From contig JAIXQG010000001.1 in assembly GCA_027485835.1 (NCBI GenBank), positions 2,948-66,947 of the forward strand: 64,000 nucleotides of DNA, read 5' to 3'. Below, piece by piece: positions 4,130 through 19,300 of the stretch. Positions within the stretch are counted from its first letter, which is position 1, and every line of letters starts with the position of its first letter. The stretch is from Alphaproteobacteria bacterium (GTDB lineage Bacteria > Pseudomonadota > Alphaproteobacteria > UBA2136 > UBA6156). The position numbers were made by a program, and so were the translations under genes. The notes beneath the pieces were generated by a model. That model searched no databases, had not been told where the DNA came from, and saw only the letters and a list, made by a program, of their open reading frames with translations.

Positions 4130-4366
4130 CTATTCGTCGAGCAGTTGGAGCTTACCGGCGGACTGCTTGTTAGAGCGGCTGTCGCTGATAAGTTCGTAGC
4201 TGATGCGTTGGTTGTCCTTCAGGCGCTGGATGTTGGCGTCCTGCACGGCGGTGATGTGGACGAAGATGTCCTTATCGCTGCCATCCGGCTTGATGAAGCC
4301 GAAGCCCTTTTTGGCGTCGAACCATTTAACGGTGCCGTTTTGGCGGGTGTTGGATGAAGAATCCAT
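4130..4366 (-). CDS. cspA: cold-shock protein (CspA family)
   Basis: GTVKWFDAKKGFGFIKPDGSDKDIFVHITAV contains the RNP1 and RNP2 motifs. Confidence 0.95.
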   Translation of the reverse strand: MDSSSNTRQNGTVKWFDAKKGFGFIKPDGSDKDIFVHITAVQDANIQRLKDNQRISYELISDSRSNKQSAGKLQLLDE

Positions 4367-4508
4367 GTGTGTGAGTCAGTCTTTAGTGGTAGTGACGCCG
4401 ACCGGTTGGCCGGGGCCGCAGGAGGGTTAGCCCCCGCTGATGAAAAAGCTGGCACGTAATAGTAGAAGTGTCAAAGAGTTATTTTATACGGGTGTTACGA
4501 ATGACAAC

Positions 4509-5366: not shown

Positions 5367-5424
5367 TTAAAGGCCCCATGCTGAGTAGGGAAAATGTCAG
5401 GAGTCTTGTGAAAGTTATTTTGCT

Positions 5425-5688
5425 GTGCAACATATAGTTGTAATGAAAGCGCAAGTTGAGACTCCTGCATGTCAGGCCCGGTTACTTCATCATTTGGTGA
5501 AGGAGTTTTTTGCGGAGATGGAGAAGGAAGTGTATCCGCACGAAACCAGTTACTCGGTACTGTTAAACGTGGTGATGCGGCTGGCCTATGAGCAGCATGG
5601 CGAAGCCGGAATTGATGAGGTTCTAGAGCTGGTGTGCAAACTAGCCGAGGGATTGGAACGCCCCCACCTGAGAGCGGTAAGCGGATAA
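5425..5688 (+). CDS. hypothetical protein
   Basis: 87-aa ORF ending immediately before a good terminator. No motif recognised. Confidence 0.45.
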   Translation: MQHIVVMKAQVETPACQARLLHHLVKEFFAEMEKEVYPHETSYSVLLNVVMRLAYEQHGEAGIDEVLELVCKLAEGLERPHLRAVSG

Positions 5689-5716
5689 AAAGCGGCCCCG
5701 AGGGGCCGATTCTTTT
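5688..5716. terminator. bidirectional terminator hairpin
   Basis: Stem CGGCCCCGAGGGGCCG flanked by an A-run and a T-run, between convergent genes. Confidence 0.65.
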
Positions 5717-5732
5717 ATTTCATTTGTTTATT

Positions 5733-7607
5733 TTAGATCCGGCAGTGGAAGAGCTTACCATTAATATTGACGATGTTGCCCACATTGCTGGCGTTGCACG
5801 CCGATGTCGCGTTGGTTTTGAGGTTGATAGAGTTGCTGACGGCAAGCGAGCCGCTGATGTTGACTGTAGCGCTCACTGCGATATTGCCCGAGGGATCGGC
5901 AATAGCTGTCGTAGTACCGGATACGATACGGTCACCACTACTGCCACCACCGCCGCCACTTAAGCTGGAGAAGGTTGTACCGTTACAAACGCTGAGGGTA
6001 CCCGCAGAGTAGCGAATGGCACCAGCTGTTGCGGCCGAGCAGACGACGTTACTGTTGCTGACCTGAATTTCACCAATCACGCTCAGGCTTACGGCAGGAG
6101 AGGTTGTACCGAGGCCGATGGCATTTGCGACATACGCACGGGTGCTTGAGATGCCATTTAATGTAGTGATGCTGATACCCGGAGCTACGAGGCGGCCGAC
6201 AGTGTCGAAGTATGCCGTACCTGCAATACCACCAGTGGTGAATGATACGGTACCGATACTTGCGGCAACCCCACCCAAGCTTGCGCCAGAGGCTACACCT
6301 GTGGTGGAGATGCGGTCGGTTGCGACTTCTCCTACAAAACGTGTTGCATTGATTGTGCCTGATACCGTGAGACCCGATGCGGTGAGCAGCATGGATTGAA
6401 CGCCAGAAGAAACCGATGTTCCGCCTATACGCCAGCGGTGTTGGGTGTCTGCCCAGTGAGTGAGTGTGAAGGATTCGATACCGGTACCGTAGGTATTGCC
6501 CCAGTAGGTGACTTTATCGCCTGTGGTTGCCGTGAAGTTGACGGATGTGCTGAGGCTAACGCCGGTCGCATTGATGGCGCCGCCTACGTTAAGTGTATAG
6601 GAGGGGTTTGTGAGAGTACCTATACCCACTACTCCCGTTGACAGATTATAGACGAAAGGCCGGAAGGCATTCCAGGTACCGTATTGGTCTCCGCTTGCTG
6701 TTTGGAGCAGGTAGACGTTGGAACCATCGTTCCGCCAGAACACGCCGAAGCTGCCTTGAATCGAGCGGAAGGCATTCGCACCTGTTGATATGATTTCGCC
6801 CGAGCTACGCAGACCACCTGAAACATCCAACCTGTAAGTGGTGGATGGAGTCATACCCATACCGATGCTACCAGTGGAATCGATACGCATTCGCTCTGTT
6901 CCGGCTGTGCTTATGCCTATGCTATCTAACGCGGGGAGGAATAATCCCGTGTTTACATCGTTAACCCAGGTGTAAACTGGTAGTGCGGCCGTGCCTGACG
7001 GGCCCACGGAGACGCGCGTTGTTGAGATGCCGTTCGCTGTTGTAATGCTGATGCCCGGAGTGACAAGGCGACCGGAGGTATCTAAGTACGCCGTGCCCGA
7101 TACACCCCCCGTGGTAAAGCTGATGGTACCGCCATTACCCGCGACGACATTTGCAGAGGTGCTGATAATACGGTCGGAGCTGCCGCCGGCTCCGCCACCA
7201 TTGGTAGTTATGGCCACACCGTTGACGGTGAGGGCGGTGGCGCTGATGTTCGTTGCAGAAACCGAATTGCTGCTAAAGTTTGGGAGGTAACTGGCGGTAG
7301 AGCCTAGGTAGCCCCATGTGGTGCCGGCGGTGGTGAGGCTGACGTTGTTAACCGTGAGGCCACCGGTGAAGGTTGTGTGGCCGGTGGTGGCGCTGATGGA
7401 GGGGGCGTAGGAGGGGCAGCCGATATCGCCGCGGGTGGATTCCCCGATACAAATACGACTCCCCGAAACACCGATTGTGGCGGAAACCATGGCGTATTCT
7501 GACCAGATTTGGGCGCTAGCGGACAACGGCAACAGGCCAGAGAGAGTGACACAGAGAGCAATTAGGCGGAGCATGGGGGCATACCGTTTTTGTATATCTT
7601 TAGGCAC
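5733..7607 (-). CDS. secreted tail-fibre-like / adhesin-like repeat protein
   Basis: Signal peptide MLRLIALCVTLSGLLPLSASA. Composition is rich in G, S and T. Two roughly 60-aa internal repeats read (G)n-SDRI(I/S)..FTTGG(V/I)(S/A)GTAY(L/F)DT.GRLV.PGISITT.NGIS.TR. There are repeated IG(L/M)G(T)..P...L.V.G motifs and two C-terminal Cys pairs. Start may be GTG 7607 or ATG 7574. Confidence 0.8.
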   Translation of the reverse strand: MPKDIQKRYAPMLRLIALCVTLSGLLPLSASAQIWSEYAMVSATIGVSGSRICIGESTRGDIGCPSYAPSISATTGHTTFTGGLTVNNVSLTTAGTTWGYLGSTASYLPNFSSNSVSATNISATALTVNGVAITTNGGGAGGSSDRIISTSANVVAGNGGTISFTTGGVSGTAYLDTSGRLVTPGISITTANGISTTRVSVGPSGTAALPVYTWVNDVNTGLFLPALDSIGISTAGTERMRIDSTGSIGMGMTPSTTYRLDVSGGLRSSGEIISTGANAFRSIQGSFGVFWRNDGSNVYLLQTASGDQYGTWNAFRPFVYNLSTGVVGIGTLTNPSYTLNVGGAINATGVSLSTSVNFTATTGDKVTYWGNTYGTGIESFTLTHWADTQHRWRIGGTSVSSGVQSMLLTASGLTVSGTINATRFVGEVATDRISTTGVASGASLGGVAASIGTVSFTTGGIAGTAYFDTVGRLVAPGISITTLNGISSTRAYVANAIGLGTTSPAVSLSVIGEIQVSNSNVVCSAATAGAIRYSAGTLSVCNGTTFSSLSGGGGGSSGDRIVSGTTTAIADPSGNIAVSATVNISGSLAVSNSINLKTNATSACNASNVGNIVNINGKLFHCRI

Positions 7608-7705
7608 CTTAGTGGTGTTCTGAGGAACCGTATCAGTTAGACGTTCAAGTTGCCAGATGGCGCGTTTTCTATTTGCTTAGTTGTGTGGCTGTTGTGTTTG
7701 CTAAA

Positions 7706-9544
7706 TCAGTCTGGCAAGAAGCCGCCTGATTGGCGGGACCAGAGGCGGGCGTAGGCGCCGCCTTTTTTGAGAAGCTCGGCATGCGTACCGTCTTCGATGA
7801 TTTGGCCGTTGTCCATGACGATCAGGCGGTCTAGCTGCGAAATAGTGGAGAGGCGGTGGGCAATGGCGATAACCGTGCGGCCTTCCATCAGGGTTTGCAG
7901 GTTCTCTTGAATCGCGTGCTCGACTTCGCTGTCCAGTGCCGAGGTGGCTTCGTCCATGATGAGGATCGGTGCGTTTTTGAGGATGAGGCGTGCGATGGCG
8001 ATACGCTGGCGTTGGCCACCGGAGAGTTTGACGCCGCGCTCTCCCACCTTCGATTGGTAGCCGGTGTTGCCGTCTTTATCCGACAGTTGGCGGATGAAGC
8101 TATCGGCTTGCGCGAGTTTGGCGGCGTTTTCGATGTCTTCATCGGTCGCCGTGGGGTTACCGTAGGCGATATTGGAGCGGATGGAGCGGTGCAGAAGGGA
8201 GGTGTCTTGCGTCACCATACCGATGGCGCTGCGGAGTGAGTTTTGCGTGACGTTGTTGATGTTTTGGCCGTCTATCCGGATATCGCCTTCATTGACCTCG
8301 TAGAAGCGGAGCAGGAGGTTGACCAGCGTACTTTTGCCCGCGCCGGATTGGCCGATAAGCCCAACCTTTTGGCCTGCCGGGATGGTGAGGTTGAGGTTAT
8401 TCAGCACTGCGTCGCCTTCCGGGTGGTAGCGGAAGGTGACGTTTTCGAAGCGGATTTCGCCTTTGTCGATTTTCAGTTGCGTGGCGCCTGATTTATCTTG
8501 CAGCGTGTGCGGCTGGATGAGGACGTTCATCGTTTCTTCCGCCGTGCCCAGATGTTCGAAGAAGGCGGTGAGTTCGTTGGCTATCCAGCCCGCCTGGTTT
8601 GTGAGCATGACGGCGATAGGAATGACCATGGCGATGGAGCCTGCGGTAATGTGGCCGTGGGTCCAGAGATAAAGCGCCAGTGCCAGCGTGTTACCCATAA
8701 AGACGGTATTGTTGAGGTCGCACCATGCCTTCATTTTAAAGACCGCAATGTGGGTGGCGACGTGGTGGTTGCGTGCGTTGACGATCGAATTGACGATGGA
8801 GGAGTCTTCCGAGACGTCATTCGCAAACAGTTTGACGGTTTGGATGTTCGTATAAGCATCCACCGTGCGGCCGACGCTGGCGCTGCGGGCGTCAGAGAAC
8901 TCCATGGAGCGGCGGCGGATGGAGGGAATGCTAAAGCGCAGGATAAAGGCGTACATAACCAGCCAGAAGGCCAACGGCGTAAGCAATAAGTAGCTGGAAC
9001 TGGCAAAGCTGAAGGCTGACACGAGAATAGAAACCGTGACCCACCAGAGGCTACCGGTGAGGATGAGGACGACTTCGCGCAGAGCGCTGCCAGCATCGAA
9101 CACTTTGTTAGCCAAGCGGCCGGCGAAGTCGTTTTGGAAAAAGCTGAGGCTGTGGCGCAGCATGTACCAGTGCATCTGGCGGCGGATGGCGTGCGTGTAA
9201 GTGCTGGTAAACAGAGTAGCGTTGAGTGCGTTGTAGCATGTGCCCGCAATAAGGCGCACTATGAGCGCTATGGCGACGTATTGGCCCACCGGATACATAA
9301 GTAGGGGCCACGCTTCCGCTGGATTGGGTGTCGTGTTGATAATGTCTATGATTTTTTTAAGAAAAAAGGGCGCGATGGCTAAGCCGAGTGCGGCTGTACC
9401 GTTTAGGGTGAACAGAATGGCGAGCAGCTTTTTTTGTTGCCGCGCAAAGTGCAGAATGTAAGGCAGCAGGCGGCGCGGCGGGTAGGGGTTTTCGGGCAGT
9501 TGGGAGATATCGGCAAGGGCGGCGAGGCGTTTAAGAAGGGACAT
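7706..9544 (-). CDS. ABC transporter, fused permease/ATP-binding protein (MsbA-like exporter)
   Basis: N-terminal 6-TM domain followed by Walker A GQSGAGKST, signature LSGGQRQRIAIAR and Walker B ILIMDEATSALD. Confidence 0.95.
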   Translation of the reverse strand: MSLLKRLAALADISQLPENPYPPRRLLPYILHFARQQKKLLAILFTLNGTAALGLAIAPFFLKKIIDIINTTPNPAEAWPLLMYPVGQYVAIALIVRLIAGTCYNALNATLFTSTYTHAIRRQMHWYMLRHSLSFFQNDFAGRLANKVFDAGSALREVVLILTGSLWWVTVSILVSAFSFASSSYLLLTPLAFWLVMYAFILRFSIPSIRRRSMEFSDARSASVGRTVDAYTNIQTVKLFANDVSEDSSIVNSIVNARNHHVATHIAVFKMKAWCDLNNTVFMGNTLALALYLWTHGHITAGSIAMVIPIAVMLTNQAGWIANELTAFFEHLGTAEETMNVLIQPHTLQDKSGATQLKIDKGEIRFENVTFRYHPEGDAVLNNLNLTIPAGQKVGLIGQSGAGKSTLVNLLLRFYEVNEGDIRIDGQNINNVTQNSLRSAIGMVTQDTSLLHRSIRSNIAYGNPTATDEDIENAAKLAQADSFIRQLSDKDGNTGYQSKVGERGVKLSGGQRQRIAIARLILKNAPILIMDEATSALDSEVEHAIQENLQTLMEGRTVIAIAHRLSTISQLDRLIVMDNGQIIEDGTHAELLKKGGAYARLWSRQSGGFLPD

Positions 9545-9630
9545 TTCGGGACGATACGGGATTTGTGGGCGCGCTGGAAGATGGTTGCTTAAAAAAGGCG
9601 CCGGGTGGCGCCTTTTTGCTGGTCATCTGT

Positions 9631-10743
9631 TTAGAATTTAACGCGCATGCTAACGGTGTAGATGTTGATATCTTCGATGTTGCTGACGCCTTCGACATCG
9701 GCACTCAGGTTACGATACAGGCCGCCGACGCTGACACCGTTGCCGAGGTCGCGGTCGGCACCAATACCGTAGACGTCCATTTCATGTTCGGTAGATGTGG
9801 CGACGGGGTTTTTGAACTTACCGTACTCGGCCGCCACACCGTAGGGGCCAAAGGCGTAGCCGACCTTACCGTAGTAGCCTTCGGCTTCATCGACGCCGGA
9901 GGCCTTTTTAGACAAGTGTTGAGTGGTGTAGGCAATGGTGGCACCCAAACCGCTGGTGTGCTTGACCGAGGCGGAGCCGCTGGTGGCACCGGTTTGCTCG
10001 TTAGTTGCGGTAGAGGTTTCGTCGTTTACAAAGCTGTGACCGAGGGCGGTATCGATTTCGAAATCGCCGAAGGTGTTGGCATAGCGGAGAGCTGCGTCGA
10101 CATTTCCGCCTTGGCTGACGCTAAGGCTGCCGTTAACGCCATTGTAGGTTGCCGAGTTGAAACGTACGGAATTCGTCAGAGCCGTGTCTCCGTTGTTACC
10201 GAGGGCAAATTCGTCTGGCGTGACGTCGGTACCGCCTAGGCTTACCACTGTACCGGTGCTGGTATGGAACTTGAGGCCGCCACCGAAGGAGGCGACGTTT
10301 ACGTTGACGATACTGCCGGCTGCAGCGAGGTCGTGGGCTAGTGTGTCGTCGTTTGCGACATCCTGTCGGCCGATAAACAGAGCGCCGTGTTCGCTCGCCA
10401 GACCGACACGGGCGATGCGTTCCTCTAAGTTAGCCGTGGTATTGCTGGGGGTGTGGGATTGGCTAGGCGTGGTGTTTTGGGTGAGGGTGTGGCTGGCGTT
10501 GGATTGGGATTGGGCTTCGAGCAATACGGATGCGGTCAGGCCGTTGTCGAGCTTTTGCTCTCCGGCAAAGCCGAGGCGGGTGGAGAGGTTGTTGTCGTCG
10601 ACCACCGTGAATTCTTTGTCGATGCCGTCGTCGTAGCCCATGGCGGCTTTGGATACGTTACCATAGAGTTTGACATCTAAGGCGTTGGCGGCCAATGGCA
10701 TAGCCACTGTAGCAACGGCTGTAAGGAGAAAGGGGGAGCGCAT
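9631..10743 (-). CDS. outer-membrane porin
   Basis: Signal peptide MRSPFLLTAVATVAMPLAANA, alternating beta-strand pattern and C-terminal ...YTVSMRVKF. The ATG at 10743 avoids the overlap with the tRNA gene that the 455-aa track ORF would create. Confidence 0.85.
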   Translation of the reverse strand: MRSPFLLTAVATVAMPLAANALDVKLYGNVSKAAMGYDDGIDKEFTVVDDNNLSTRLGFAGEQKLDNGLTASVLLEAQSQSNASHTLTQNTTPSQSHTPSNTTANLEERIARVGLASEHGALFIGRQDVANDDTLAHDLAAAGSIVNVNVASFGGGLKFHTSTGTVVSLGGTDVTPDEFALGNNGDTALTNSVRFNSATYNGVNGSLSVSQGGNVDAALRYANTFGDFEIDTALGHSFVNDETSTATNEQTGATSGSASVKHTSGLGATIAYTTQHLSKKASGVDEAEGYYGKVGYAFGPYGVAAEYGKFKNPVATSTEHEMDVYGIGADRDLGNGVSVGGLYRNLSADVEGVSNIEDINIYTVSMRVKF

Positions 10744-10891
10744 TTTTGTATGTCCTTTATTAATGAGAACAATTTTGATGGTTCGCCGCGGAGGGTGTAA
10801 AGAGGGAGAGGCGGGGATGGTGAATTGGGTGTGATAAGTTTGCCGTTTGGTGTGGCTTATTGAACGCGGGCTGCCTTTAAATAAAAGCAAT

Positions 10892-10913
10892 AAAAAGAAG
10901 CCCTTGCGGGCTT
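10892..10913 (-). terminator. terminator downstream of tRNA-Ser
   Basis: Minus strand reads AAGCCCGCAAGGGCTT followed by a T-run. Confidence 0.55.
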
Positions 10914-10919
10914 TGAATC

Positions 10920-11012
10920 TGGCGGAGCGGGGGGGATTCGAACCCCCGATACGGATTTTGTCCGTATGACGATTTAGCAAACCGTTGCCTTCAGCCACTC
11001 GGCCACCGCTCC
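10920..11012 (-). tRNA. tRNA-Ser (anticodon GCU)
   Basis: Hand-folded cloverleaf. The acceptor stem is GGAGCGG/CCGCTCC. The anticodon stem-loop is ACGGT-TTGCTAA-ATCGT. There is a long variable arm, the T arm is GGGGG-TTCGAAT-CCCCC, and the CCA end is encoded. Confidence 0.95.
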
Positions 11013-11265
11013 AGCGCGCGCAACTTGCCTTTAAGTGGGGCGGATGTCAATCCGCTCGGTTTAGAAAATGCGCTTTTGTTAGGTTTATACGTGCATTTAC
11101 AATTTAAAACAATGGCTTGATAGTTATTGTGGGAGGGTGTGCATTTAGACTGTGCGGATTTGCAACCCTACGGGGTGGATTGTGCCGATTTTACAGGCGG
11201 AGAGCCTTGATATTACCGGCGCTGAAACCCATACTGACCTTATGTTGAGCTGCCTAAAGGGTACT

Positions 11266-14200
11266 ATGTACCGTTCGCTAACCCTGTTGGGGTTGGTTTT
11301 GGTATTTATGGTTGTGGCCAGTAATGGCTGGGCTCAGTTTCTTGTTGAAGGTGGTGAGCTTGCTGAAAAATACACTCAGTATCCTTTCTTAGGTGTTGAT
11401 AACACTCAGCGCAATATGCTTATCAATGCCTTTAACTTCCAGAGCCGCATATTTACTATGATGAGCGGGACTGGAGTTGAAAAGGTTGAGGCTTTTAACA
11501 TTTTAGCAATATTGGGAGCTCTTGTAGGGGCTTTGCTATTGTTCTTTAATGCAAAAATTCGCAAGCCCATGATCGTAGCTCCATGGTTAATAGTTCTTAT
11601 CCTGCTTGTATTTGCGCCTTATGGAAGTAAATTGCTATTTTACCCCGTATCTCAACAGTCATTACAACCTGTATTTACTGGTCCTCGAGCGACTATTGTC
11701 GAGAAAGATTGTGTGTCAGCTCCTGAAATATGTGGATTCGCACCACAGATTGTGGCTGTTCACGTTGCTTCTACATTACAGATGCTGTTCTCAGATGCTT
11801 TCCGTTCGGCTGGTTGGGAAGGATTGATGGAGTCCTTCAAGGCTCGAGCTGAATTATCCGGTTCGCCTAATTTAAATCTTAACCCTCAGGTTATTCAGAG
11901 GTTGAATGAATATGACAAGGCTTGTTCTTCCACGCCTATTACGAATCACGTTGATACTCTCTTTCCAGTAAGTAGTGCCGCCGCAAGCACGCCAACCGGT
12001 GCTGCAGGCAGTTCTGCACCTGCAGAAGATCAAAAGACCGTACCAATCCGATTTGCCGATAAATGGAAAAGTATCACGAATGAGATGAATAATGCCGATA
12101 TTGATGTCGGCTTAATGCCTCCTGATGCCATAGAACTTTGGGATGATGCAGCGTTTAAGACTGCTATGACTGAAAACGGTTGGGGACAAACCGTTCAACA
12201 GGAGTACGAAGCTGGGCTTACGCAGCTGTACCAAGCTGCCGGTGGTATTGCTACTGTATCTATTGATGCAACTACCTGCAGTGATGCAGAGAGTTGTGCC
12301 GGTAAAACCAAAGTTTCTGCTTTGACGGCCCTTAGAAAGCTTGAAGATAGTGGTTTTTTCAAAATTTATCAGAAAGATCAGCCTTATGGTGAGGAAGATT
12401 CTGGAAGAGATACCCGCTTGCTGCCTGGCTTTTTTGTTTATTGGGACGGAGCAAAGAACAACGACAGTAAATCGACTGAGCCGGCAGATGAAACGTTCTC
12501 TGCGGCTGGAGCACGGGCATGTTACCAAGCTAATTCTGGTGAGTTAAATATGGATCCCAGTTGCAGACGAATTGGTACTAACTATGGTCAGCAACTTACT
12601 TATGTTAAGGACAATTTCTTTAGTTCTGATAATTCTATTTTTAGTGTGCCTGAATGGCAGATTATGAGTGCTATTCAAGATCCCCGCTCAGCTATATCAC
12701 GTATGCCTGTTAAGCCACGTCGTTACTCTGAAGGAGTTAAGACTGATGAGGGAACCTCTAAACCTGTTGTTCAAGAGAACAAGGGCGGACAAAACTGTGA
12801 AGTTGATGGCGTTAATACAATTAAAGAGATTATCAATTTAACAGTTGGACCTGAGGGAACGACTAACAAAGCTGCCCGTAAGGACATGTTTAGCAATACT
12901 CAAAAACTATTGCTTGGTGAGACACCACTTCCTGCTCGAATCACTCTCAAAGATGTATGTAACGATGTGACGGATCCTGATACAGCATCTGAGGAATGTC
13001 ATACTGGTGCGGGGTTAGCAGCGGATGAAGAAATCACGAATATTGGGAAGAATATGGCCCTGTTCTTTGACGAAATTGTTCGTGCAAATTCGACGAAGAC
13101 TACGAGTGAAAAAAATAACATTATGTTAAGAGAATTTCTGAGATTGATTCAGGAATCCAGCATGAATGCTCGTAAAGGGGACCCAGATGCTGCTCAAAAA
13201 GCGGCGCAAGATGGCACAAGCCCAGAAGTCGTTGGTGCACGCTGGCTCACATCGCTTGGTGGAGGGATTGCGACGCTGTTAGGAAGCTTTATTGTTCAAA
13301 TTGGCTCTTGGTTTGTTGGACCTCTCTCTGCGGCTATTATCTTCTTCCTGACGATGTTGGTAGATATGTCGCTCATGATTTTGATCATCCTCACTCCGTT
13401 CCTTCTTTTGGCTGGATTGTTTGTGCCAGGGAACGCGATTGGTGTGCTTACTGTTAGCATTGTTGGGGTGTTTGTTCTGAAGTTTGTGCCGGTGACGTTG
13501 GTCATTTTAAACTATCTTGGCGCGATGATTTACACCTTTGTTGGTTATGGTGCTGACCCTGAATTAGCAAAAACCATGCAGAGTATGATTATCATTGCGA
13601 TGGGTGGTATGTATGCGAGCCTTGTGACAATGACGTTCTTCTTGTTGTTCAAGATGGGTGATGCTTCCGCCATTCTCAGTCGCTTTACGGCATTGGATAA
13701 TAATGCCAAGGAAATTGCCCAGCGTGGGATGGGGGCTGCCCTTACATTGGCAAGTGCGGCTGCTATTATTGCCGGTGGTGGAGTTGCGGCGGCGCTAGGT
13801 CGTGGTTCGATGGGTTTGGCGGCCAAGAAAGCTGCTGCGAATTTAGGTATTCCGCCGGGCTGGGTTGATGCTGCTAAGGGGCTTGCTGAGACGCCAAACA
13901 AAGATGCTAAAACTGCAGGTAACGGTAAAGAGGGGCCGGAGGGTGTGGAAGACCTCCCTACCGAACCGTTGGATGGGCTCACTGCTGAAGAGCGTGCCAT
14001 GCGCGATCAGAACGATGACATTCTGGGGGCCAAGCTAGACCAGGCAGGCCTTGAACGTGCTAAAAAACAGAATGCCGCATCCGACGCCAAGGAAATGTTG
14101 CGTGATGTGTATGGCAGGCACTTTGAAGGAGGCATTAGTGCGGAAGAGGCGGAGAAGTTTGTTGATGAAGGTCGTCTTGTTAAGGAAGACAAGTATGGCA

Positions 14201-16797
14201 ACATGCGTGAATTTCAGCTTACCAAGAATGGTGATGCCTATGGTGTGAATCCGAGCGGTATTACGCCCAAGATTGCCGGCGCGAGCGAAACCGTTGGTAC
14301 AGGCATTGGCTCGACAGTAGGTGATGCCATTGGCACTGATGCTCAGGCAAATGCGGCTCTTTCCGAGACAAATGGTATGCCTACGGCAGAGGGAGGTGCT
14401 AATACATCTCAAGCTGCGGCAGGTGGAGGTGGTATACCGGCCTCTGTGACCATTGCAGGTGGTAGCTTGAGCTCGATTGACTCTGTTGGTGAGGTCGGAC
14501 GAATTCAGCAAAGTGCGACTGAACAAGCTAGCATGCAAGACCGCGTAAAAGAGATTGCGGCTGAAAAAGAAGCAGAGCGTCAGGCAGCCGAGAACAAAGA
14601 CGCATTGGCGCTTGCGAATAATACCAAGCTTGAGCCGACTCAGAGAGAACAACTCTCTAAAATTGCGGATGAGTTAGACAAGACTACTGACGAGGATCGT
14701 CGTGAGGAACTCTTTAAACAGCAAGATGATGTTCTTAAGCAGGCTGGTAAGACCAAGGCTGGTATGAAGCGTGATGAGCTATTAACGCGCAATATGAATG
14801 ACCAGATTGCCGAAGCATTGTTGCGCTTTGATAGTGAGCACGGTGAGGCATATCAAGCTGCTGATAAGAAGAAGCAGAGTGGTGGAGCTCTTTCTAAGCA
14901 AGAGAAAGAGCTTATGGCTATACGTGATGGTTTGGCTAACTTTGATACGGCCGGAGTTGCTCAGGGTGAGATCATGTCACGTCTGGGGACTTTTGAGAGT
15001 TTAAATGCGTCTCTGCGGGCCCGTGCTGGCGCCGATAACTTGCCGAGCTTAGGTGCGAGTGTTTTGAGTGGTATGTACGGTGGCTTAACAGGTGCTGGTG
15101 GCGGCTTAGCCAAAATTCCGGTTATTGGGCCGGCAATTACTGAGTCTATCAATGAGTTCTATCAAGCACCTGAACGTGCCCGTGCTGCTGCGGCTGTAGG
15201 TGGACTCGGAGCTTGGTGGTCTGCTCAGGGCAATGCCAAGCGTATGGGCTTCTACCAGAAGGAAATGACTCCGCTTGTTGCAGCTCAGCAGTATGAATCT
15301 ATGTCTACTATTGGCGGATTCCAAGCTCAGGCAGATCTTGCTCGTCAGGCTGCAAATGAGGCTGTGGCACGGAGTCGTTCTCAGTGGGAAGCAATGGTTG
15401 CTAGCCGCGCACCGACCCTTTCCATGGATTTACGCAATGAAATCTTGAGTAAGAATCCTAATATCTCTCAATCTGATTTACAGGTTGAATTAAGCCGTAG
15501 GTTTAATGAAAAGATTAATAGTTCTGAATTCAAGGTTGTGATGTCTGCGGGAGAGCTCTCTGGTTTGGGCCGTTTGGATGCTGCAGATAAGATTGCCTCG
15601 GTGCGGCAGGAAGCTTTCCTGATGCAGGGTGCTTCTCTTGATGTGAAGCGTGTTAAGGGTGGTTTAGATGGCAATATGATGCTTAAGGCTGGCTCTACTG
15701 CAGGTTTGAATGTTGAAGTGGAGCAGGTAGGTGTGGTTCTTACTCCGGAAGCTTTGGCGCGTGTGCGTGGTGATTTGACCACTAAGGCTACGATTGGTAA
15801 ATATGATGACATGATGCTCGCGCATTATGGACTTGCTGAGAAGCAGTACTTACGGGGTGATGCGGATTGGGACTCTACTCGTAATATGAACACGAGTGGT
15901 GCTGCAGCACGCATGTTTGCCCGTAAGGATGTGTCGACGGACTACCTGATTGGTGGGCACCTTAAGATGGTATCGGGTAAGGAAAAATTCCTCGAAGGTA
16001 AGGCTCAGTATGAGACTTTGGTGAAGTTCCGTAACGAAACCAATAACAAGATTGCCGAGTTTATGCAGACCCAGCTTGCGGGCGCAGGTGGCCAGCTCTC
16101 TAAGGTGCTTGCCGATGCGGGTGTTCAGGGCAAACTGAGTGGCTTAAGCGGACGTGATTTAGCTGTAAATACGCGTATGGAGCTTGAGAAGTGGGCTGGC
16201 AAGCAAATGGTGGCAAATAAGGAATACCTGCCGCTTAACTTGTTGTTTGAATCTGCTGATGCGCGTGGAAGATCTTCTTACGAATTAAAGGCTAAGAAGG
16301 CACGTTCTGAGATTGCTGCTGAAAATGCGGCGGTTTGGGAAGCAGTGGATAAGGCTCGTCGGGCTGCTGTGGCCAGTGCGTTACCTTCTTTGAATAGTTC
16401 TGCGAAGAAAGCAGCAAAAACCGAATGGAACGGCTTTAATATTGAAGCTGGTGCTCCGTTAGAAATTTTTACAGAATGGCTGGACAGTGCTTTAGGTACG
16501 GCTTCAGAAGAAATTCTGGGTAAGCTCAGTAAAGCAATACCTTCAGCTATGCAGGACTCTTTCTTGCGATCTGAAAAGAGAACTATAAAAATAGATGGAA
16601 AGGATTACCGTGAAGTTGTGTCCTATATGAATAAGGATGCTTTTGCGGAACTGCAGCGGACAATGAACGAAGAGCAAAGAAAAGCCTTTTTAGCAGAAAA
16701 GAAATACTACCGTGAAGCTAACGGACGGATTGAGTTGTCTCGTACGGTTATGGGTAGCGACGGAAGCATTCGTGAAGACTTGTCGCATAACAGATAA
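11266..16797 (+). CDS. giant polytopic membrane protein of unknown function (about 1843 aa)
   Basis: Single uninterrupted ORF (the track gives 11152-16797 from a GTG). The ATG at 11266 yields a canonical signal peptide, MYRSLTLLGLVLVFMVVASNGWA. Two further hydrophobic helices lie near 11500-11640, an exported region with many Cys follows, and about 6 TM helices are encoded at about 13240-13800. The last roughly 1000 aa are A/E/K/Q-rich helical and Gly-rich. No enzymatic motif recognised. G+C is visibly lower than in the flanks. Confidence 0.85.
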   Translation: MYRSLTLLGLVLVFMVVASNGWAQFLVEGGELAEKYTQYPFLGVDNTQRNMLINAFNFQSRIFTMMSGTGVEKVEAFNILAILGALVGALLLFFNAKIRKPMIVAPWLIVLILLVFAPYGSKLLFYPVSQQSLQPVFTGPRATIVEKDCVSAPEICGFAPQIVAVHVASTLQMLFSDAFRSAGWEGLMESFKARAELSGSPNLNLNPQVIQRLNEYDKACSSTPITNHVDTLFPVSSAAASTPTGAAGSSAPAEDQKTVPIRFADKWKSITNEMNNADIDVGLMPPDAIELWDDAAFKTAMTENGWGQTVQQEYEAGLTQLYQAAGGIATVSIDATTCSDAESCAGKTKVSALTALRKLEDSGFFKIYQKDQPYGEEDSGRDTRLLPGFFVYWDGAKNNDSKSTEPADETFSAAGARACYQANSGELNMDPSCRRIGTNYGQQLTYVKDNFFSSDNSIFSVPEWQIMSAIQDPRSAISRMPVKPRRYSEGVKTDEGTSKPVVQENKGGQNCEVDGVNTIKEIINLTVGPEGTTNKAARKDMFSNTQKLLLGETPLPARITLKDVCNDVTDPDTASEECHTGAGLAADEEITNIGKNMALFFDEIVRANSTKTTSEKNNIMLREFLRLIQESSMNARKGDPDAAQKAAQDGTSPEVVGARWLTSLGGGIATLLGSFIVQIGSWFVGPLSAAIIFFLTMLVDMSLMILIILTPFLLLAGLFVPGNAIGVLTVSIVGVFVLKFVPVTLVILNYLGAMIYTFVGYGADPELAKTMQSMIIIAMGGMYASLVTMTFFLLFKMGDASAILSRFTALDNNAKEIAQRGMGAALTLASAAAIIAGGGVAAALGRGSMGLAAKKAAANLGIPPGWVDAAKGLAETPNKDAKTAGNGKEGPEGVEDLPTEPLDGLTAEERAMRDQNDDILGAKLDQAGLERAKKQNAASDAKEMLRDVYGRHFEGGISAEEAEKFVDEGRLVKEDKYGNMREFQLTKNGDAYGVNPSGITPKIAGASETVGTGIGSTVGDAIGTDAQANAALSETNGMPTAEGGANTSQAAAGGGGIPASVTIAGGSLSSIDSVGEVGRIQQSATEQASMQDRVKEIAAEKEAERQAAENKDALALANNTKLEPTQREQLSKIADELDKTTDEDRREELFKQQDDVLKQAGKTKAGMKRDELLTRNMNDQIAEALLRFDSEHGEAYQAADKKKQSGGALSKQEKELMAIRDGLANFDTAGVAQGEIMSRLGTFESLNASLRARAGADNLPSLGASVLSGMYGGLTGAGGGLAKIPVIGPAITESINEFYQAPERARAAAAVGGLGAWWSAQGNAKRMGFYQKEMTPLVAAQQYESMSTIGGFQAQADLARQAANEAVARSRSQWEAMVASRAPTLSMDLRNEILSKNPNISQSDLQVELSRRFNEKINSSEFKVVMSAGELSGLGRLDAADKIASVRQEAFLMQGASLDVKRVKGGLDGNMMLKAGSTAGLNVEVEQVGVVLTPEALARVRGDLTTKATIGKYDDMMLAHYGLAEKQYLRGDADWDSTRNMNTSGAAARMFARKDVSTDYLIGGHLKMVSGKEKFLEGKAQYETLVKFRNETNNKIAEFMQTQLAGAGGQLSKVLADAGVQGKLSGLSGRDLAVNTRMELEKWAGKQMVANKEYLPLNLLFESADARGRSSYELKAKKARSEIAAENAAVWEAVDKARRAAVASALPSLNSSAKKAAKTEWNGFNIEAGAPLEIFTEWLDSALGTASEEILGKLSKAIPSAMQDSFLRSEKRTIKIDGKDYREVVSYMNKDAFAELQRTMNEEQRKAFLAEKKYYREANGRIELSRTVMGSDGSIREDLSHNR

Positions 16798-16820
16798 ATA
16801 TTGATTAAGAAAAAATAACA

Positions 16821-18926
16821 ATGAAGTTAAAAGCTTACGCCGCACGCTATGAGATGAGCAAGGGGGAGAGCCCCTTGCTCCTGATTGACGAACGTGTGGC
16901 TGAGGACTGGTTTGGGCGCGAGCCTTTTGATGATACACAAGCTCAAGGTGTAAGCGACAACCTTATGATGGCGCCTTATGGCACGACCGATGGCCATAAT
17001 TTGATGCGCGACAGCACCATTATGGATGGCATGCAGTTGGATAAGTATGTGCCGTTGTCTCCGTTGTTTGTCAAAGACCTTGCGGGACGCACTATTTACA
17101 TTGGTTATGGCCCTGAGCGGAAGTCTAACTACGAATGGCAGGCCTATGCTGTGGATGTGGATAAAGTTGGACCTGAAGAAGTAAACCCGTTTATTCCGCT
17201 CGTAGTTTTCCCCCGGTTTTGCCGTGACGCAAGTGGAATGGATGGGGAGGACTTACTGGAGCAGGTATTTTTGACCAAGTTCCGTTGCTTGGAAATGAGT
17301 ATGGGCTTTCATGGACAGCTTAGTGGAGCCGGTGAGGATGACCCGTTGGTTTCGGCGAGTTATGATGGCGCCAACCTTTATCCGTATAAGTTACGTATGG
17401 ATACTTTCTATATTGATGGGTACAAAGTGCCTCAAACCCAAATGGTTTACGCCCGAGGCATGCAAGATGGTGTGAGCCCGGTACAAGCAAAGAAGCTTGG
17501 TTTGAAGTTTTTGCAGCAGTGGAGCGAACGTCCGGCTGGTACGACATATGAACAATGGTTGGAACAATTTGGAGAAGACCATGTTGAGGACTTATTTCAG
17601 TCTGGCTGTTCTGTTATTCCAACCTTTGAGGCCTGTAACGGATATCATCTTGTCGGGCGAGAATTCCAGTTAGAAGACTTCTGGCCGGGCCGCGCTGTTT
17701 TGGGGTTGCATGATGTGGCCGATACTCGTACCGATAAGGCGCCTGCTGGAACCATTTTAGACGTTTTAGAGCCTGGATTTGTAACTGCAGACTACGTAAG
17801 GCCGGCTAAGGTTGTTGTGAGCGATGGAAGTGGTTACGTTAGCCCAAATGCGAGTGACCCTGACCCCTTGGTACCTAATTTGAATTTGCCGCATCCGCGG
17901 CTGATTGATAATTGGCGTGCGGTTTGGTTACCTACTCACCCCCTGCATTTTGAAGCACCTGCGTTGTGGGGATGGGATATTTCCACTGGACGATTTATGC
18001 AGATTGCTGGCCCGGTTTGGGACCCTTTGCATTACTATTATGAGAGTGTGGATCGGGTATTGGCTGCGTTTGATGCTTACCCGTTAGGATCAAACCGGAC
18101 GGGTTTAGTGCCTGTACCGGATGATATGGAAGAGCGATTCTTTCCGATTGTACCAATGACTGGGTTTGATACATTTTCGGAAGCTGAATTTAAGCGCCGA
18201 TTAGAAAAAAACGTACTACCGAAGAGCTGTATTAAGCGGTTCAATACCGGCCAATATTCTGCCGGTTTAGGGTATCACCCGTTGCCGGCTGAATTTGAGT
18301 TTGAGTTGGATCCGTTCTGGTTCCCGGAACTGCATCCGCTTAACCGTGAGCAGGGGGCTGCTCCGGAAGATGTAGACTCTCGTATTAGCCCGGTTATTAA
18401 CCCTCAGATTACCGTTACCGTGTTTAAGCCTACGGTGGATGCTCCTGCACAGGCAACGTGGATGACAGATGATGCCAAGTTAATGACGCCGATGCCTGAT
18501 CCTCTTACAAATTATCCGCAATTGACTCGTTATCTTTTACCGGATGCGGATATTGAGACCATCATGAAGATATGCCCAGTGCCTTACTTGGGGCAACCTG
18601 AAGAGGAAGAGATACTTACGAAACCTGCGACGTTGTGGTGGACTACAGAGGAAGGTCTTCAGCTTGATAACCCTGTTGCATTGGAAGATTTTATTCCTGG
18701 AGTGCATGATGCTTTATGGGATATGCGTCAGAAAGGTGTTGATATCGTTAAATTCCGTCACATGATCTATCGCACCAATCTGCCACTTTACATGTTGGGT
18801 TGGTGGTATGGTTGGGATTTGGACCGGATGCAAGGCTATGCTGTGAATTGGATTCAAACATCGGTTGCAGAAGATCAGCAGATGCAGACTATTTTACGTG
18901 ATTTAACAGTAAATGCTCGCACTTAA
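16821..18926 (+). CDS. hypothetical 701-aa soluble protein, partner of the giant membrane protein
   Basis: Starts 23 nt after the preceding stop on the same strand and has the same low-GC composition. No signal peptide or TM helix. Acidic and rich in Trp and Pro. No motif recognised. Confidence 0.85.
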   Translation: MKLKAYAARYEMSKGESPLLLIDERVAEDWFGREPFDDTQAQGVSDNLMMAPYGTTDGHNLMRDSTIMDGMQLDKYVPLSPLFVKDLAGRTIYIGYGPERKSNYEWQAYAVDVDKVGPEEVNPFIPLVVFPRFCRDASGMDGEDLLEQVFLTKFRCLEMSMGFHGQLSGAGEDDPLVSASYDGANLYPYKLRMDTFYIDGYKVPQTQMVYARGMQDGVSPVQAKKLGLKFLQQWSERPAGTTYEQWLEQFGEDHVEDLFQSGCSVIPTFEACNGYHLVGREFQLEDFWPGRAVLGLHDVADTRTDKAPAGTILDVLEPGFVTADYVRPAKVVVSDGSGYVSPNASDPDPLVPNLNLPHPRLIDNWRAVWLPTHPLHFEAPALWGWDISTGRFMQIAGPVWDPLHYYYESVDRVLAAFDAYPLGSNRTGLVPVPDDMEERFFPIVPMTGFDTFSEAEFKRRLEKNVLPKSCIKRFNTGQYSAGLGYHPLPAEFEFELDPFWFPELHPLNREQGAAPEDVDSRISPVINPQITVTVFKPTVDAPAQATWMTDDAKLMTPMPDPLTNYPQLTRYLLPDADIETIMKICPVPYLGQPEEEEILTKPATLWWTTEEGLQLDNPVALEDFIPGVHDALWDMRQKGVDIVKFRHMIYRTNLPLYMLGWWYGWDLDRMQGYAVNWIQTSVAEDQQMQTILRDLTVNART

Positions 18927-18955
18927 AAAAAAACGGCCGGTGAGGCCGTTTTTTT
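18925..18955. terminator. bidirectional rho-independent terminator
   Basis: A9-CGGCCGGTGAGGCCG-T7, between the convergent 701-aa gene and grxD. Confidence 0.8.
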
Positions 18956-18967
18956 GAGGTGAGATGG

Positions 18968-19300
18968 TTAGGCGGTGAGGGGGGCGAGGAGGTCGGCCAG
19001 TTCGCCGCTGGTGTACATCTCCACCATGATGTCGGCGCCGCCGATGAGGTCGCCGTTCACGTACAATTGCGGGAAGGTTGGCCATTCGCTGAATTCCTTC
19101 AGGCCGGCGCGCAGGTCGTCGCGCTCCAGAATGTTAATGCCGGTAAAGGGTATGCCGAGGTTGTTGAGAACGCCGACAGCGCGGGCGGAGAAGCCGCACA
19201 TAGGTTGCGAAGGCGTGCCCTTCATGTACAGCACAACGGGGCTACCGTTGATTTGGCTTTCGATTTCGGCTTTGAGCTCGGGGGTGAGGATGTCGTCCAT
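18968..19300 (-). CDS. grxD: Grx4-family monothiol glutaredoxin
   Basis: CGFS active site (PMCGFSARAV) and WPTFPQLYVNGDLIGGADI. Confidence 0.95.
   Translation of the reverse strand: MDDILTPELKAEIESQINGSPVVLYMKGTPSQPMCGFSARAVGVLNNLGIPFTGINILERDDLRAGLKEFSEWPTFPQLYVNGDLIGGADIMVEMYTSGELADLLAPLTA

What the first reader, a model, noticed from the sequence alone, without database searches (positions are those of the whole stretch)
11013..18960. Low-GC 7.7-kb two-gene module between tRNA-Ser and grxD: candidate undescribed system
- **Composition.** Spot counts of individual 60-nt lines inside 11.15-18.93 kb give about 32%, 43% and 60% G+C, and the region looks like mid-40s overall by eye. The flanking porin and grxD/bolA lines give about 60%. 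Third codon positions visibly shift toward A/T.
- **Content.** The segment contains only two co-directional ORFs, 23 nt apart. It ends at a strong bidirectional terminator (18925-18955).
- **No recognisable function.** I found no nucleotide-binding, protease, nuclease or glycosyl-transfer motif in about 2,540 residues.
- **Mobility signs are absent.** No integrase, transposase or flanking direct repeat is visible, and the tRNA shows its 5' end to the segment.

A foreign-looking, very large, function-less operon embedded in housekeeping context is the strongest candidate in this window for a novel membrane-associated machine. A role in cell-cell interaction is possible.
Basis: partly seen in the sequence, partly recalled or inferred. 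Interest (0 to 1): 0.8.

Follow-up and report, generated by a model that had tools for sequence, protein, structure and literature searches.

The report
Detached, fast-evolving type IV secretion gene pair
The two large unannotated genes are real, and they are most likely a split-off, fast-evolving piece of an unusual type IV secretion (cell-to-cell transfer) machine found only in a group of uncultured alphaproteobacteria, not a foreign island or a stand-alone new system.

Summary
Two co-directional genes lie between tRNA-Ser and grxD: A (11266-16797, 1843 aa from its ATG) and B (16821-18926, 701 aa). They are 23 nt apart and end at a hairpin terminator. GC3 is 0.42 and 0.47, against 0.66±0.11 for other window genes. 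Neither protein matches Pfam, NCBIfam, PHROGs, PADLOC or PDB.

The interpretation needs correcting.
- **Not an island.** The order tRNA-Ser–A–B–grxD–bolA–ssb–recG is kept in relatives whose RecG is only 73% identical.
- **Linked to type IV secretion.** A and B homologues lie adjacent in about 33 loci. In many they sit inside a deeply divergent F-like type IV secretion (T4SS) cluster: TraE–TraK?–lytic transglycosylase–helicase–761–641–A–B–TraB–lipoprotein–TraC–872–297.
- **Complementary distribution.** Nine genomes carry the detached A+B pair plus a cluster that keeps a B paralogue but has no A and no other polytopic membrane protein.

A is therefore most likely the VirB6/TraG-like inner-membrane subunit, with a roughly 950-aa hypervariable tail. 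B is its soluble partner. B gives a confident model (pLDDT 92.7) with no PDB fold match and carries a GrpE-type β-domain.

The pair diverges far faster than its flanks: B is 72% and A 49% identical where RecG is 95%.

Verdict: new variant of a known kind, moderate interest.

The parts
10920..11012 (-). tRNA-Ser(GCT). It lies immediately upstream of gene A and is a conserved neighbour of the pair in relatives, where it is usually on the opposite strand.
   Evidence: ARAGORN and Rfam. The same tRNA lies next to A in L001, L004, L008, L010 and L021. blastn shows it is inverted relative to L004 and L008.
11076..11124 (+). Two overlapping sigma-70-like hexamer pairs in the tRNA–A spacer. This is a candidate promoter with weak evidence only.
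   Evidence: Both are 9/12 matches, and the region's total count is not above the shuffled expectation.
11266..16797 (+). Gene A (1843 aa from the ATG; the ORF is open from a GTG at 11152). It encodes a polytopic membrane protein and is the proposed VirB6/TraG-like inner-membrane subunit.
   Evidence: ORF. Database length of 1843 aa. Homologues lie directly upstream of B in about 33 loci, including T4SS clusters.
11266..11337 (+). Signal peptide or N-terminal anchor of A (MYRSLTLLGLVLVFMVVASNGWA).
   Evidence: Hydropathy peak at residues 38-56 in ORF numbering. Sequence read.
11491..11625 (+). First transmembrane hairpin of A (ORF residues 114-158). It is conserved across the whole A family.
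   Evidence: It is 75-79% identical to L001, while the rest of A is 20-60%.
11626..13221 (+). Loop of about 530 aa between the two TM blocks. It is predicted to be periplasmic, is variable, and has the lowest GC3 (0.36).
   Evidence: The periplasmic location is inferred from the signal peptide plus two TM segments.
13222..13821 (+). Transmembrane bundle of A (about 5-6 TM, ORF residues about 691-890). This is the most conserved part and is the segment shared with the A-like genes inside T4SS clusters.
   Evidence: phmmer domains, profile search, 89% identity to L001 and hydropathy.
13822..16794 (+). C-terminal tail of about 990 aa, rich in Ala, Gly, Glu and Lys. It is hypervariable and found only in the detached-type A proteins.
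   Evidence: Local jackhmmer. Identity to L001 is 19-59% per 100 aa. Composition. No Pfam hit.
16821..18926 (+). Gene B (701 aa). It encodes a soluble protein with no signal peptide or TM segment. The family is sharply bounded, and the structure model is confident but has no known fold match.
17682..17852 (+). GrpE-type C-terminal β-domain inside B (residues 288-344). It is the most densely invariant stretch of the family.
   Evidence: hhalign probability 97.3%, E 2.7e-11. The only distant HMM hits in 1.84e9 proteins are GrpE proteins. The top Foldseek PDB hits are GrpE. The motif is kept in all clades.
18925..18955 (.). Bidirectional intrinsic terminator shared by B and the convergent grxD.
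   Evidence: A9-CGGCC-GGTGA-GGCCG-T7, read in the sequence.

Best explanation
A and B form a two-gene operon that is a detached module of a lineage-specific, deeply divergent F-like type IV secretion system (T4SS). The other genes of that system (TraE-like, TraK-like?, VirB1-like, TraB/VirB10, TraV-like lipoprotein, TraC/VirB4 and several unknown proteins) lie elsewhere in the genome.

**Proposed mechanism.**
- A is exported by its Sec signal peptide and inserts into the inner membrane.
- Its two TM blocks and its large periplasmic loop supply the polytopic VirB6/TraG-like platform of the machine.
- Its roughly 950-aa hypervariable tail is a specificity or contact element, comparable to the C-terminal domain of F TraG or the extended VirB6 paralogues of Rickettsiales.
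- B is a soluble cytoplasmic protein made from the same transcript. It binds A or the base of the machine. Its invariant GrpE-type β-domain is a docking surface for a nucleotide-binding protein.

**Shown versus inferred.**
- Shown: the homology and adjacency of A and B across loci, their location inside T4SS clusters, the complementary distribution, the topology, the GrpE-like segment and the fast divergence.
- Inferred: that A works as the VirB6-like subunit, that A and B bind each other, what B does, and what the T4SS transports.
For: 1. **Pair conserved.** An A homologue lies directly upstream of B in about 33 loci.
2. **Pair inside T4SS clusters.** In L022, L024, L025, L030-L033, L035 and L038 the pair sits within a fixed cluster: TraE-239-LT-helicase-761-641-A-B-TraB-151-TraC-872-297.
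   - TraB matches NF010289 at 1.4e-16 and Pfam TrbI at 1.2e-9.
   - TraC matches TIGR02746 at 2.7e-59.
   - TraE matches at 7e-4 and VirB1 at 3e-4.
   - The 151-aa protein has a lipobox.
3. **A is the only polytopic protein.** In clusters that contain it, A is the only polytopic membrane protein. Clusters that lack it (L047, L043) encode none.
4. **Complementary distribution.** Nine genomes (VAFM01, DIUO01, QFOU01, JAIXZU01, RFNJ01, JACKLD01, CAZROO01, JAPPOO01, JBAQUW01) carry a detached A+B pair plus a T4SS cluster with a B paralogue and no A. VAFM01 is 95% identical to the window in RecG and carries both loci on one 626-kb contig.
5. **Tree.** In the B tree the detached B proteins form one clade and the B paralogues of A-less clusters form another. 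The B proteins of A-containing clusters branch apart from both.
6. **Topology.** A has a signal peptide, 2 TM, a loop of about 530 aa, then about 5-6 TM. This is the VirB6/TraG_N/DotA style of architecture (own knowledge).
7. **Sequence divergence is expected.** VirB6-like proteins are known to be almost unrecognisable by sequence. F TraG and pKM101 TraD are 8% identical (PMC10939261).
8. **Precedent.** Rickettsiales have split T4SS loci with giant, strain-variable VirB6 paralogues (PMC3556328, PMC7648143).
9. **B's conserved domain.** The GrpE-type β-domain is the most conserved part of B in every clade.
Against: - **No similarity of A to known subunits.** Single-sequence and 21-member Pfam scans, a PDB profile search, and hhalign against an SXT-type TraG (probability 0.1) all failed. 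The only A model was unusable, with pLDDT 34.8.
- **T4SS not seen in this genome.** The 64-kb window contains no T4SS gene. I could not check the rest of the source genome.
- **The cluster is only weakly a T4SS by curated standards.**
  - All matches are below the NCBIfam cut-offs.
  - No coupling protein, relaxase, TraL, TraH, TraU, TraN, TraW or TraF was recognised within ±10 kb.
  - The only P-loops are in TraC and a UvrD-like helicase.
- **B may have a different role here.** B persists in two copies per genome, so the detached B may have diverged in function from the in-cluster copy.
- **C-terminal tail side unresolved.** I could not determine on which side of the membrane the tail of A lies.
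Confidence: 0.6

Rival explanations
1. The pair originated in the T4SS but now works as an independent two-protein membrane device. One possibility is a surface or recognition determinant under diversifying selection, with B as its dedicated cytoplasmic chaperone or assembly factor.
For: - The detached pair forms its own B clade.
- It has gained a roughly 900-aa C-terminal region absent from the in-cluster A proteins.
- It diverges much faster than its flanks and faster than most T4SS genes.
- The T4SS cluster keeps its own B paralogue.
- L026, L027 and L023 carry A+B with no T4SS gene within reach.
- B's GrpE-like domain hints at a chaperone connection.
Against: - Clusters in two-copy genomes encode no polytopic membrane protein, so the machine would lack a core part unless the detached A supplies it.
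- The TM core of A stays 89% identical between close relatives, as expected for a retained structural role.
Confidence: 0.22
2. The segment is a recently acquired foreign island, integrated next to tRNA-Ser.
For: - GC3 is low (0.42 and 0.47 against 0.66).
- A tRNA lies adjacent.
- Synonymous sites in B are near saturation against the closest relative, while the flanks are not.
- B's GC3 varies from 0.39 to 0.71 among relatives with constant flanks. This is compatible with allele replacement from other lineages.
Against: - The same pair sits at the same position in every relative examined, down to 73% RecG identity.
- There is no integrase, transposase or att-like repeat.
- B has no match in 72,556 plasmids, 50,697 phages or IMG/VR.
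- The family is confined to this lineage.

At most, alleles are exchanged among relatives at a fixed locus.
Confidence: 0.05
3. A is a phage-derived tape-measure-like or toxin-like giant protein, and B is its partner. Under this reading the pair is a prophage remnant or a polymorphic toxin system.
For: A is very long, has central TM segments and low-complexity regions, and is hypervariable.
Against: - No PHROGs or PADLOC hits.
- No BFVD structural match for B.
- No phage or IMG/VR homologues.
- No neighbouring phage, toxin or immunity genes.
- The consistent neighbours are T4SS genes.
Confidence: 0.03

Closest known systems
F-type T4SS TraG (VirB6-like N-terminal membrane domain plus a C-terminal domain for mating-pair stabilisation and entry exclusion)
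   Same: - It is a large polytopic inner-membrane protein of an F-like (TraE/K/B/V/C) system.
- It has a long extra C-terminal region that carries specificity. In SXT/R391-type elements traG sits next to the exclusion gene eexS.
- The order TraE–TraK–…–TraB–TraV–…–TraC in the related clusters is F-like.
   Different: - There is no detectable sequence similarity (Pfam TraG_N not hit; hhalign probability 0.1).
- A has a cleavable-looking signal peptide and a roughly 530-aa loop.
- A is always paired with B, which has no F counterpart.
- In this genome the gene lies away from the rest of the machine.
Rickettsiales vir homologue (rvh) T4SS with split loci and extended VirB6 paralogues (e.g. Anaplasma VirB6-4)
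   Same: - T4SS genes are scattered over several chromosomal loci.
- The VirB6-type proteins carry giant C-terminal extensions that differ strongly between close strains (PMC3556328, PMC7648143, PMC2653234).
- Both occur in Alphaproteobacteria.
   Different: - The rvh system is a P-type (VirB/D4) system with recognisable VirB6 domains and tandem repeats.
- Here the system is F-like, A has no recognisable VirB6 domain and no tandem repeats, and there is one A rather than 4-5 paralogues.
GrpE (nucleotide exchange factor of DnaK), C-terminal β-domain
   Same: B residues 288-344 align with the GrpE β-domain. The signature …H.V……P.GTIL.V..PGY….PA.V.VS.G is shared. Foldseek also ranks GrpE structures first.
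   Different: - Only about 57 of B's 701 residues match by sequence.
- TM-scores normalised to the query are about 0.1.
- B has no GrpE-like N-terminal long helix by sequence, and it lies in a secretion-system context.
- B is not a GrpE family member.
Dot/Icm DotA / IncI TraY (large polytopic T4SS membrane protein with a big periplasmic loop)
   Same: The general architecture and size class are similar (own knowledge; not tested here).
   Different: The associated ATPase is F-type TraC-like, not DotO/IcmB-like. No sequence link was seen.

Membership tests
VirB6/TrbL (PF04610) or TraG_N (PF07916) | Significant match to the family profile | tested here: not met
   No Pfam hit for A at E≤0.01. 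None for 21 family members at E≤10. hhalign of the A profile against an SXT-type TraG gave probability 0.1. The PDB profile search gave only low-complexity noise.
VirB6/TrbL or TraG_N | Polytopic inner-membrane topology with a large periplasmic loop between TM blocks | tested here: met
   Hydropathy gives a signal peptide, TM 114-158, a loop of about 530 aa, then 5-6 TM at 691-890. The same layout appears in homologues. This rests on hydropathy only, not a dedicated topology predictor.
VirB6/TrbL or TraG_N | Encoded with VirB4, VirB8 and VirB10 homologues of one machine | tested here: inconclusive
   Met for A homologues in L022, L024, L025, L030-L033, L035 and L038. Not met in the window, where no T4SS gene lies within 64 kb. 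The closest relative has the cluster about 570 kb away on the same contig.
VirB6/TrbL or TraG_N | Fold similar to solved VirB6 (R388 TrwI) or predicted TraG_N | tested here: inconclusive
   Only a 4-sequence alignment was accepted by the predictor. The model had pLDDT 34.8 and pTM 0.24 and was unusable.
F-type (MPF-F) type IV secretion system (the related clusters) | VirB4-family ATPase of TraC type | tested here: met
   TIGR02746 TraC-F-type at 2.7e-59 (below the curated cut-off). Pfam TraC_F_IV and P-loop_TraG. Identity to plasmid TraC is 20-25%.
F-type (MPF-F) type IV secretion system (the related clusters) | TraB/VirB10, TraE/VirB8-like, TraK/VirB9-like and TraV lipoprotein | tested here: inconclusive
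   TraB matches at 1.4e-16 and TrbI at 1.2e-9. TraE matches only at 7e-4. The 239-aa secreted protein has no hit. The 151-aa protein has a lipobox but no TraV hit.
F-type (MPF-F) type IV secretion system (the related clusters) | F-specific genes TraF, TraH, TraN, TraU, TraW and TrbC, plus TraL and pilin | tested here: not met
   None were recognised among cluster ORFs within ±10 kb.
Conjugative T4SS | Relaxase and type IV coupling protein | tested here: not met
   None were recognised within ±10 kb. The only P-loop proteins are TraC and a UvrD-like helicase. They could lie elsewhere in the genomes.
GrpE (PF01025) | Full-length match: long N-terminal helix, four-helix bundle and C-terminal β-domain | tested here: not met
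   Pfam GrpE is not hit by B. Only the β-domain aligns (57 columns, probability 97.3%).
Genomic island / integrative element | Integrase or transposase, att-like direct repeats, and presence/absence polymorphism among relatives | tested here: not met
   There is no such gene or repeat. The pair is present at the same site in all relatives examined.

The most novel reading that the evidence does not exclude
The TraB/TraC clusters plus the A–B pair define a previously unrecognised class of T4SS-derived contact machine in a lineage of small-genome, uncultured Alphaproteobacteria. This class would lack a conventional coupling protein and relaxase. In it, B would use its GrpE-type domain to act on an Hsp70-type or other nucleotide-binding partner, either to energise or gate the machine or to handle the long tail of A. 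A's hypervariable tail would set target-cell specificity. B would then be a new protein fold with a new role in secretion.
Probability: 0.12. Interest if true: 0.85.

Novelty: new variant of a known kind. Interest (0 to 1): 0.55.

Why it matters
- **Two undescribed protein families.** One (B) gives a high-confidence model with no fold match in the PDB and has only about 49 representatives among 1.84 billion clustered proteins. Both can now be tied to type IV secretion rather than left as 'hypothetical'.
- **An unusual T4SS branch.** The work exposes a deep F-like branch in uncultured Alphaproteobacteria. It has about six lineage-specific genes inserted between TraK and TraB, and no recognisable coupling protein.
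- **A second case of a split T4SS.** It gives a second, independent example, after the Rickettsiales, of a T4SS split over several loci with a giant, fast-diverging VirB6-type subunit. That pattern may mark machines whose exposed parts are under diversifying selection from target cells.
- **Annotation value.** The link between A, B and the T4SS would let genome annotators recognise these systems.
- **A possible experimental route.** One cultured strain, Brucella daejeonensis DSM 26944, carries a B homologue.

Tried and rejected
**Domain and structure searches**
- Pfam, NCBIfam, PHROGs and PADLOC on A and B gave nothing.
- PDB sequence-profile searches found nothing for B and only low-complexity noise for A, such as CoREST and SLC12.
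- Foldseek of the confident B model against PDB and BFVD gave no hit with E ≤ 0.001. The top PDB hits were GrpE, with TM-score normalised to the query ≤ 0.11.

**Attempts on protein A**
- A second word-indexed homologue search with A residues 31-960 returned nothing, not even the query itself.
The permitted 4-sequence alignment gave pLDDT 34.8. I ran no further search on it.
- hhalign of the A profile against one SXT-type TraG was negative. I did not build a TraG family profile.
- I tested whether the C-terminal tail of A is a fusion with another cluster protein (641, 761 or 872). It is not.

**Mobile-element and other-origin tests**
- Flanking att-like repeats and tandem repeats were not found.
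- Plasmid, phage and IMG/VR searches for B were negative.
- Looking up the window's own B to find the source record returned 'not on record'.

**Literature and taxonomy**
- The Micavibrio genome paper reports no T4SS (PMC3189940). No paper links a GrpE-like domain to T4SS.
- I suspected a Micavibrio-like lineage but could not test it.

**Recombination versus fast local evolution**
- No clear incongruence appeared among the five close genomes.
- After correcting for base composition, the synonymous excess of B over recG is about 3-4 fold. That could also arise from relaxed codon or GC constraint, so the question stays open.
Full report

Yes.
- tRNA-Ser(GCT) lies at 10920-11012 on the minus strand.
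- Two + strand ORFs follow, at 11152..16797 and 16821..18926, separated by 23 nt.
- The convergent grxD lies at 18968-19300, followed by bolA, ssb, recG and mfd.
- The database copy of the first protein is 1843 aa. The real start is therefore most likely the ATG at 11266, which opens directly onto a signal-peptide-like sequence.
- The terminator is visible in the sequence as A9-CGGCC-GGTGA-GGCCG-T7 at 18925-18955. The pattern scanner missed it.

The compositional dip is real but moderate.
- The 500-nt windows give 42-53% G+C inside the segment and 52-60% outside.
- Per gene, GC3 is 0.415 for A and 0.470 for B, against 0.657±0.11 for 27 other ORFs. GC1 and GC2 are normal.

Neither protein hits Pfam, NCBIfam, PHROGs or PADLOC. 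There is no integrase, transposase, flanking direct repeat or tandem repeat.

**2. The pair is old and fixed in place, not a recent island.**

A search with B found 187 homologues at 38-83% identity. All are unnamed and come from metagenome-assembled Alphaproteobacteria.

Contigs carrying close and more distant B homologues show the same order: tRNA-Ser, a 1766-1974-aa protein, B, then grxD, bolA, ssb, recG and mfd. This holds even where RecG is only 73% identical to the window's.

A phmmer and profile scan of every ORF in the fetched loci found an A homologue directly upstream of B in about 33 loci. The pair is therefore conserved as a pair, and its position is ancestral for this clade.

**3. 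Both genes belong to a type IV secretion context.**

A scan of one genome per GTDB species found 43 loci. Almost all are uncultured Alphaproteobacteria carrying inconsistent NCBI labels. They fall into two kinds.

*Detached pairs.* These resemble the window: A is 1500-2200 aa, and no secretion gene lies within 10 kb.

*Clusters with a fixed order*:
- TraE-like (227 aa)
- a secreted 239-aa protein
- a VirB1-like lytic transglycosylase
- a UvrD-like helicase
- a 761-aa protein with HTH and sigma-like segments
- a secreted protein of about 641 aa
- A-like (930-1290 aa)
- B
- TraB/VirB10
- a 151-aa lipoprotein
- TraC/VirB4
- a variable protein of about 872 aa
- a highly conserved 297-aa protein

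The identifications rest on these matches:
- NCBIfam F-type TraB at 1.4e-16 and Pfam TrbI at 1.2e-9
- TraC-F-type at 2.7e-59
- TraE at 7e-4 and VirB1 at 3e-4
- a LAGC lipobox in the 151-aa protein

All of these are below the curated cut-offs. The cluster's TraC is only 20-25% identical to plasmid F-type TraC. This is therefore a very deep F-like branch. The backbone order TraE–TraK–TraB–TraV–TraC matches that of F-like elements.

**4. The distribution is complementary.**

Where a genome has one copy of B, the A-like gene and B sit inside the cluster. In those clusters A-like is the only polytopic membrane protein.

Nine genomes have two copies of B: VAFM01, DIUO01, QFOU01, JAIXZU01, RFNJ01, JACKLD01, CAZROO01, JAPPOO01 and JBAQUW01. 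In these:
- The cluster keeps a B paralogue.
- The cluster has no A, and L047 and L043, the two A-less clusters checked by hydropathy, encode no polytopic protein at all.
- A detached A+B pair lies elsewhere.

VAFM01 is the closest sequenced relative of the window, with RecG 95% identical. It carries both loci on one 626-kb contig.

A neighbour-joining tree of B puts the detached copies in one clade and the paralogues of A-less clusters in another. The copies from A-containing clusters branch apart from both.

The simplest history has three steps. The ancestral state was A–B inside the cluster. B, or the A–B pair, was then duplicated. Finally the cluster copy of A was lost, leaving the detached A as the only candidate for the machine's polytopic subunit.

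**5. Protein A.**

Hydropathy gives the following layout:
- a signal peptide
- a TM hairpin at residues 114-158
- a loop of about 530 aa, inferred to be periplasmic
- 5-6 TM segments at residues 691-890
- a tail of about 990 aa rich in Ala, Gly, Glu and Lys

Only the two TM blocks are shared with the in-cluster A-like proteins. The tail is confined to the detached type.

This layout resembles VirB6, TraG_N or DotA (my own knowledge). I could not show homology, however:
- Pfam on 21 family members found nothing.
- A PDB profile search found only noise.
- hhalign against an SXT-type TraG was negative.

VirB6-type proteins are known to be nearly unalignable. F TraG and pKM101 TraD are 8% identical (PMC10939261). 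The negative result therefore weakens the assignment but does not exclude it.

**6. Protein B.**

B has no signal peptide, no TM segment and no P-loop. Forty homologues share 70 invariant columns, many of them His, Asp, Arg, Tyr, Trp or Pro.

AlphaFold gives a very confident model, with pLDDT 92.7 and pTM 0.92. Foldseek finds nothing comparable in the PDB or BFVD. The best TM-score normalised to the query is 0.11.

An exhaustive HMM search of 1.84 billion representative proteins found only 49 hits. The full-length ones all score below 1e-128, and most of the rest are fragments, so the family is small and sharply bounded.

The only distant hits are GrpE proteins.
- A profile-profile comparison aligns B residues 288-344 with the GrpE C-terminal β-domain at 97.3% probability, E 2.7e-11.
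- The top Foldseek hits are also GrpE.
- The motif GRAV.GLH.V…P.GTIL.V..PGY…PA.V.VSDG is kept in every clade of B.

In GrpE this domain contacts the nucleotide-binding domain of DnaK (established knowledge, PDB 1DKG). What it binds here is unknown.

**7. Evolutionary tempo.**

Five genomes have RecG 94-96% identical and grxD 93-97% identical, with pS of 0.28-0.46 in those genes. Among the same five genomes:
- B is only 71-84% identical, with pS of 0.69-0.79.
- A is 49% identical.

At four-fold degenerate sites of identical residues, B differs at 69% of sites, against a random expectation of 73%. recG differs at 36%, against a random expectation of 54.5%. After correcting for composition, the synonymous distance of B is about 3-4 times that of recG.

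Within A, the TM blocks stay 75-89% identical. The stretch from about residue 900 to 1300 and the last 180 residues fall to about 20-30%.

B's GC3 ranges from 0.39 to 0.71 among relatives whose flanking genes stay at 0.70-0.88. In VAFM01 the T4SS cluster has normal GC3.

Two readings remain open:
- old alleles maintained or exchanged by recombination at a fixed locus (diversifying selection), or
- locally relaxed codon or GC constraint combined with fast protein evolution.

Inside the T4SS cluster, the B paralogue and the 641- and 872-aa proteins are likewise the fast-evolving members, at 58-68% identity where TraC is 90%.

**8. Mechanism I commit to (confidence 0.6).**

A and B are co-transcribed. 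The 23-nt gap and the single terminator support this, but it is inferred, not shown.

A supplies the VirB6/TraG-like inner-membrane platform for the TraB/TraC machine encoded elsewhere. Its hypervariable tail acts as a specificity or contact element. B is a soluble partner at the cytoplasmic face and uses its GrpE-type domain to dock a nucleotide-binding protein.

The association with the T4SS is well supported. The subunit role of A is an inference from context, topology and exclusion. The role of B is a hypothesis. What the machine transports is unknown. No relaxase or coupling protein was seen within ±10 kb, but a UvrD-like helicase is a constant member of the cluster.

**9. Comparison with known systems.**

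The closest functional analogues are:
- F-type TraG, which combines a VirB6-like membrane domain with a specificity-bearing C-terminal domain.
- The split rvh T4SS of Rickettsiales, with giant, strain-variable VirB6 paralogues (PMC3556328, PMC7648143, PMC2653234).

Membership in the VirB6, TraG_N or GrpE families is not supported by the profile tests. The cluster meets only part of the F-type definition. I therefore classify the finding as a new variant of a known kind, not as a member of those families and not as categorically new.

**10. Limits.**
- I could not inspect the rest of the source genome.
- I could not place the lineage taxonomically.
- I could not obtain a usable model of A.
- I could not distinguish recombination from rate acceleration.

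No paper in the searchable library links these proteins, or a GrpE-like domain, to type IV secretion.

Noticed in passing
window 54999-56490 (+): A complete 16S rRNA gene. The remaining 7.5 kb of the window contains no 23S rRNA and no spacer tRNA-Ile or tRNA-Ala, so the rRNA genes appear to be unlinked. Unlinked rRNA genes are typical of small-genome or slow-growing lineages. This 16S could be used to name the organism.
   Followed up: partly
window 56899-57648 (-): A 249-aa ORF directly downstream of the 16S gene has a strikingly low G+C of 32% (GC3 0.30) in a 55% G+C window. It has no Pfam hit. It is a better candidate for truly foreign DNA than the finding itself.
   Followed up: partly
L023 (Brucella daejeonensis DSM 26944, NZ_JACIJG010000023.1, 1-13550): This is the only cultured organism with a B homologue (41% identity). 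A fragment of the A TM core (247 aa) and a 222-aa ORF lie upstream of it. A serine resolvase and ArdC anti-restriction genes lie about 6-8 kb downstream, suggesting a plasmid or mobile context or a contaminant contig.
   Followed up: partly
L047 2183-4129 and homologues in all T4SS clusters; L033 21030-21848: A UvrD-like helicase is a constant member of the T4SS clusters, and a PD-(D/E)XK nuclease lies at the cluster edge in L033. No relaxase or coupling protein was recognised. This hints at an unusual DNA-processing route.
   Followed up: partly
window 10913-11054 versus L004 4403-4512 and L008 4172-4309: The roughly 140-bp segment carrying tRNA-Ser is inverted in the window and in L001 relative to other relatives. 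In L001 and L050 a PAS/MCP chemoreceptor gene lies just upstream of A; in L001 it sits between the tRNA and A. The upstream edge of the pair is therefore a small rearrangement hotspot.
   Followed up: partly
L055 (Comamonadaceae bacterium OS-4 plasmid pOS401, 72327-104705): The nearest plasmid relative of the cluster's TraC (25% identity) lies in a long operon of almost entirely 'hypothetical' genes, together with a virB1 and a YjcD-like helicase. This may be another unannotated divergent T4SS of the same broad branch. It has no B homologue.
   Followed up: no
NCBI labels of loci L007, L009, L010, L016, L026, L031, L038: Genomes carrying this gene pair are labelled Blastochloris viridis, Pseudomonas fluorescens, Sphingobacteriales, Pseudomonadaceae and Magnetococcales in their records. 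Their loci are nevertheless syntenic with one another, so several of these MAG labels are evidently wrong.
   Followed up: no
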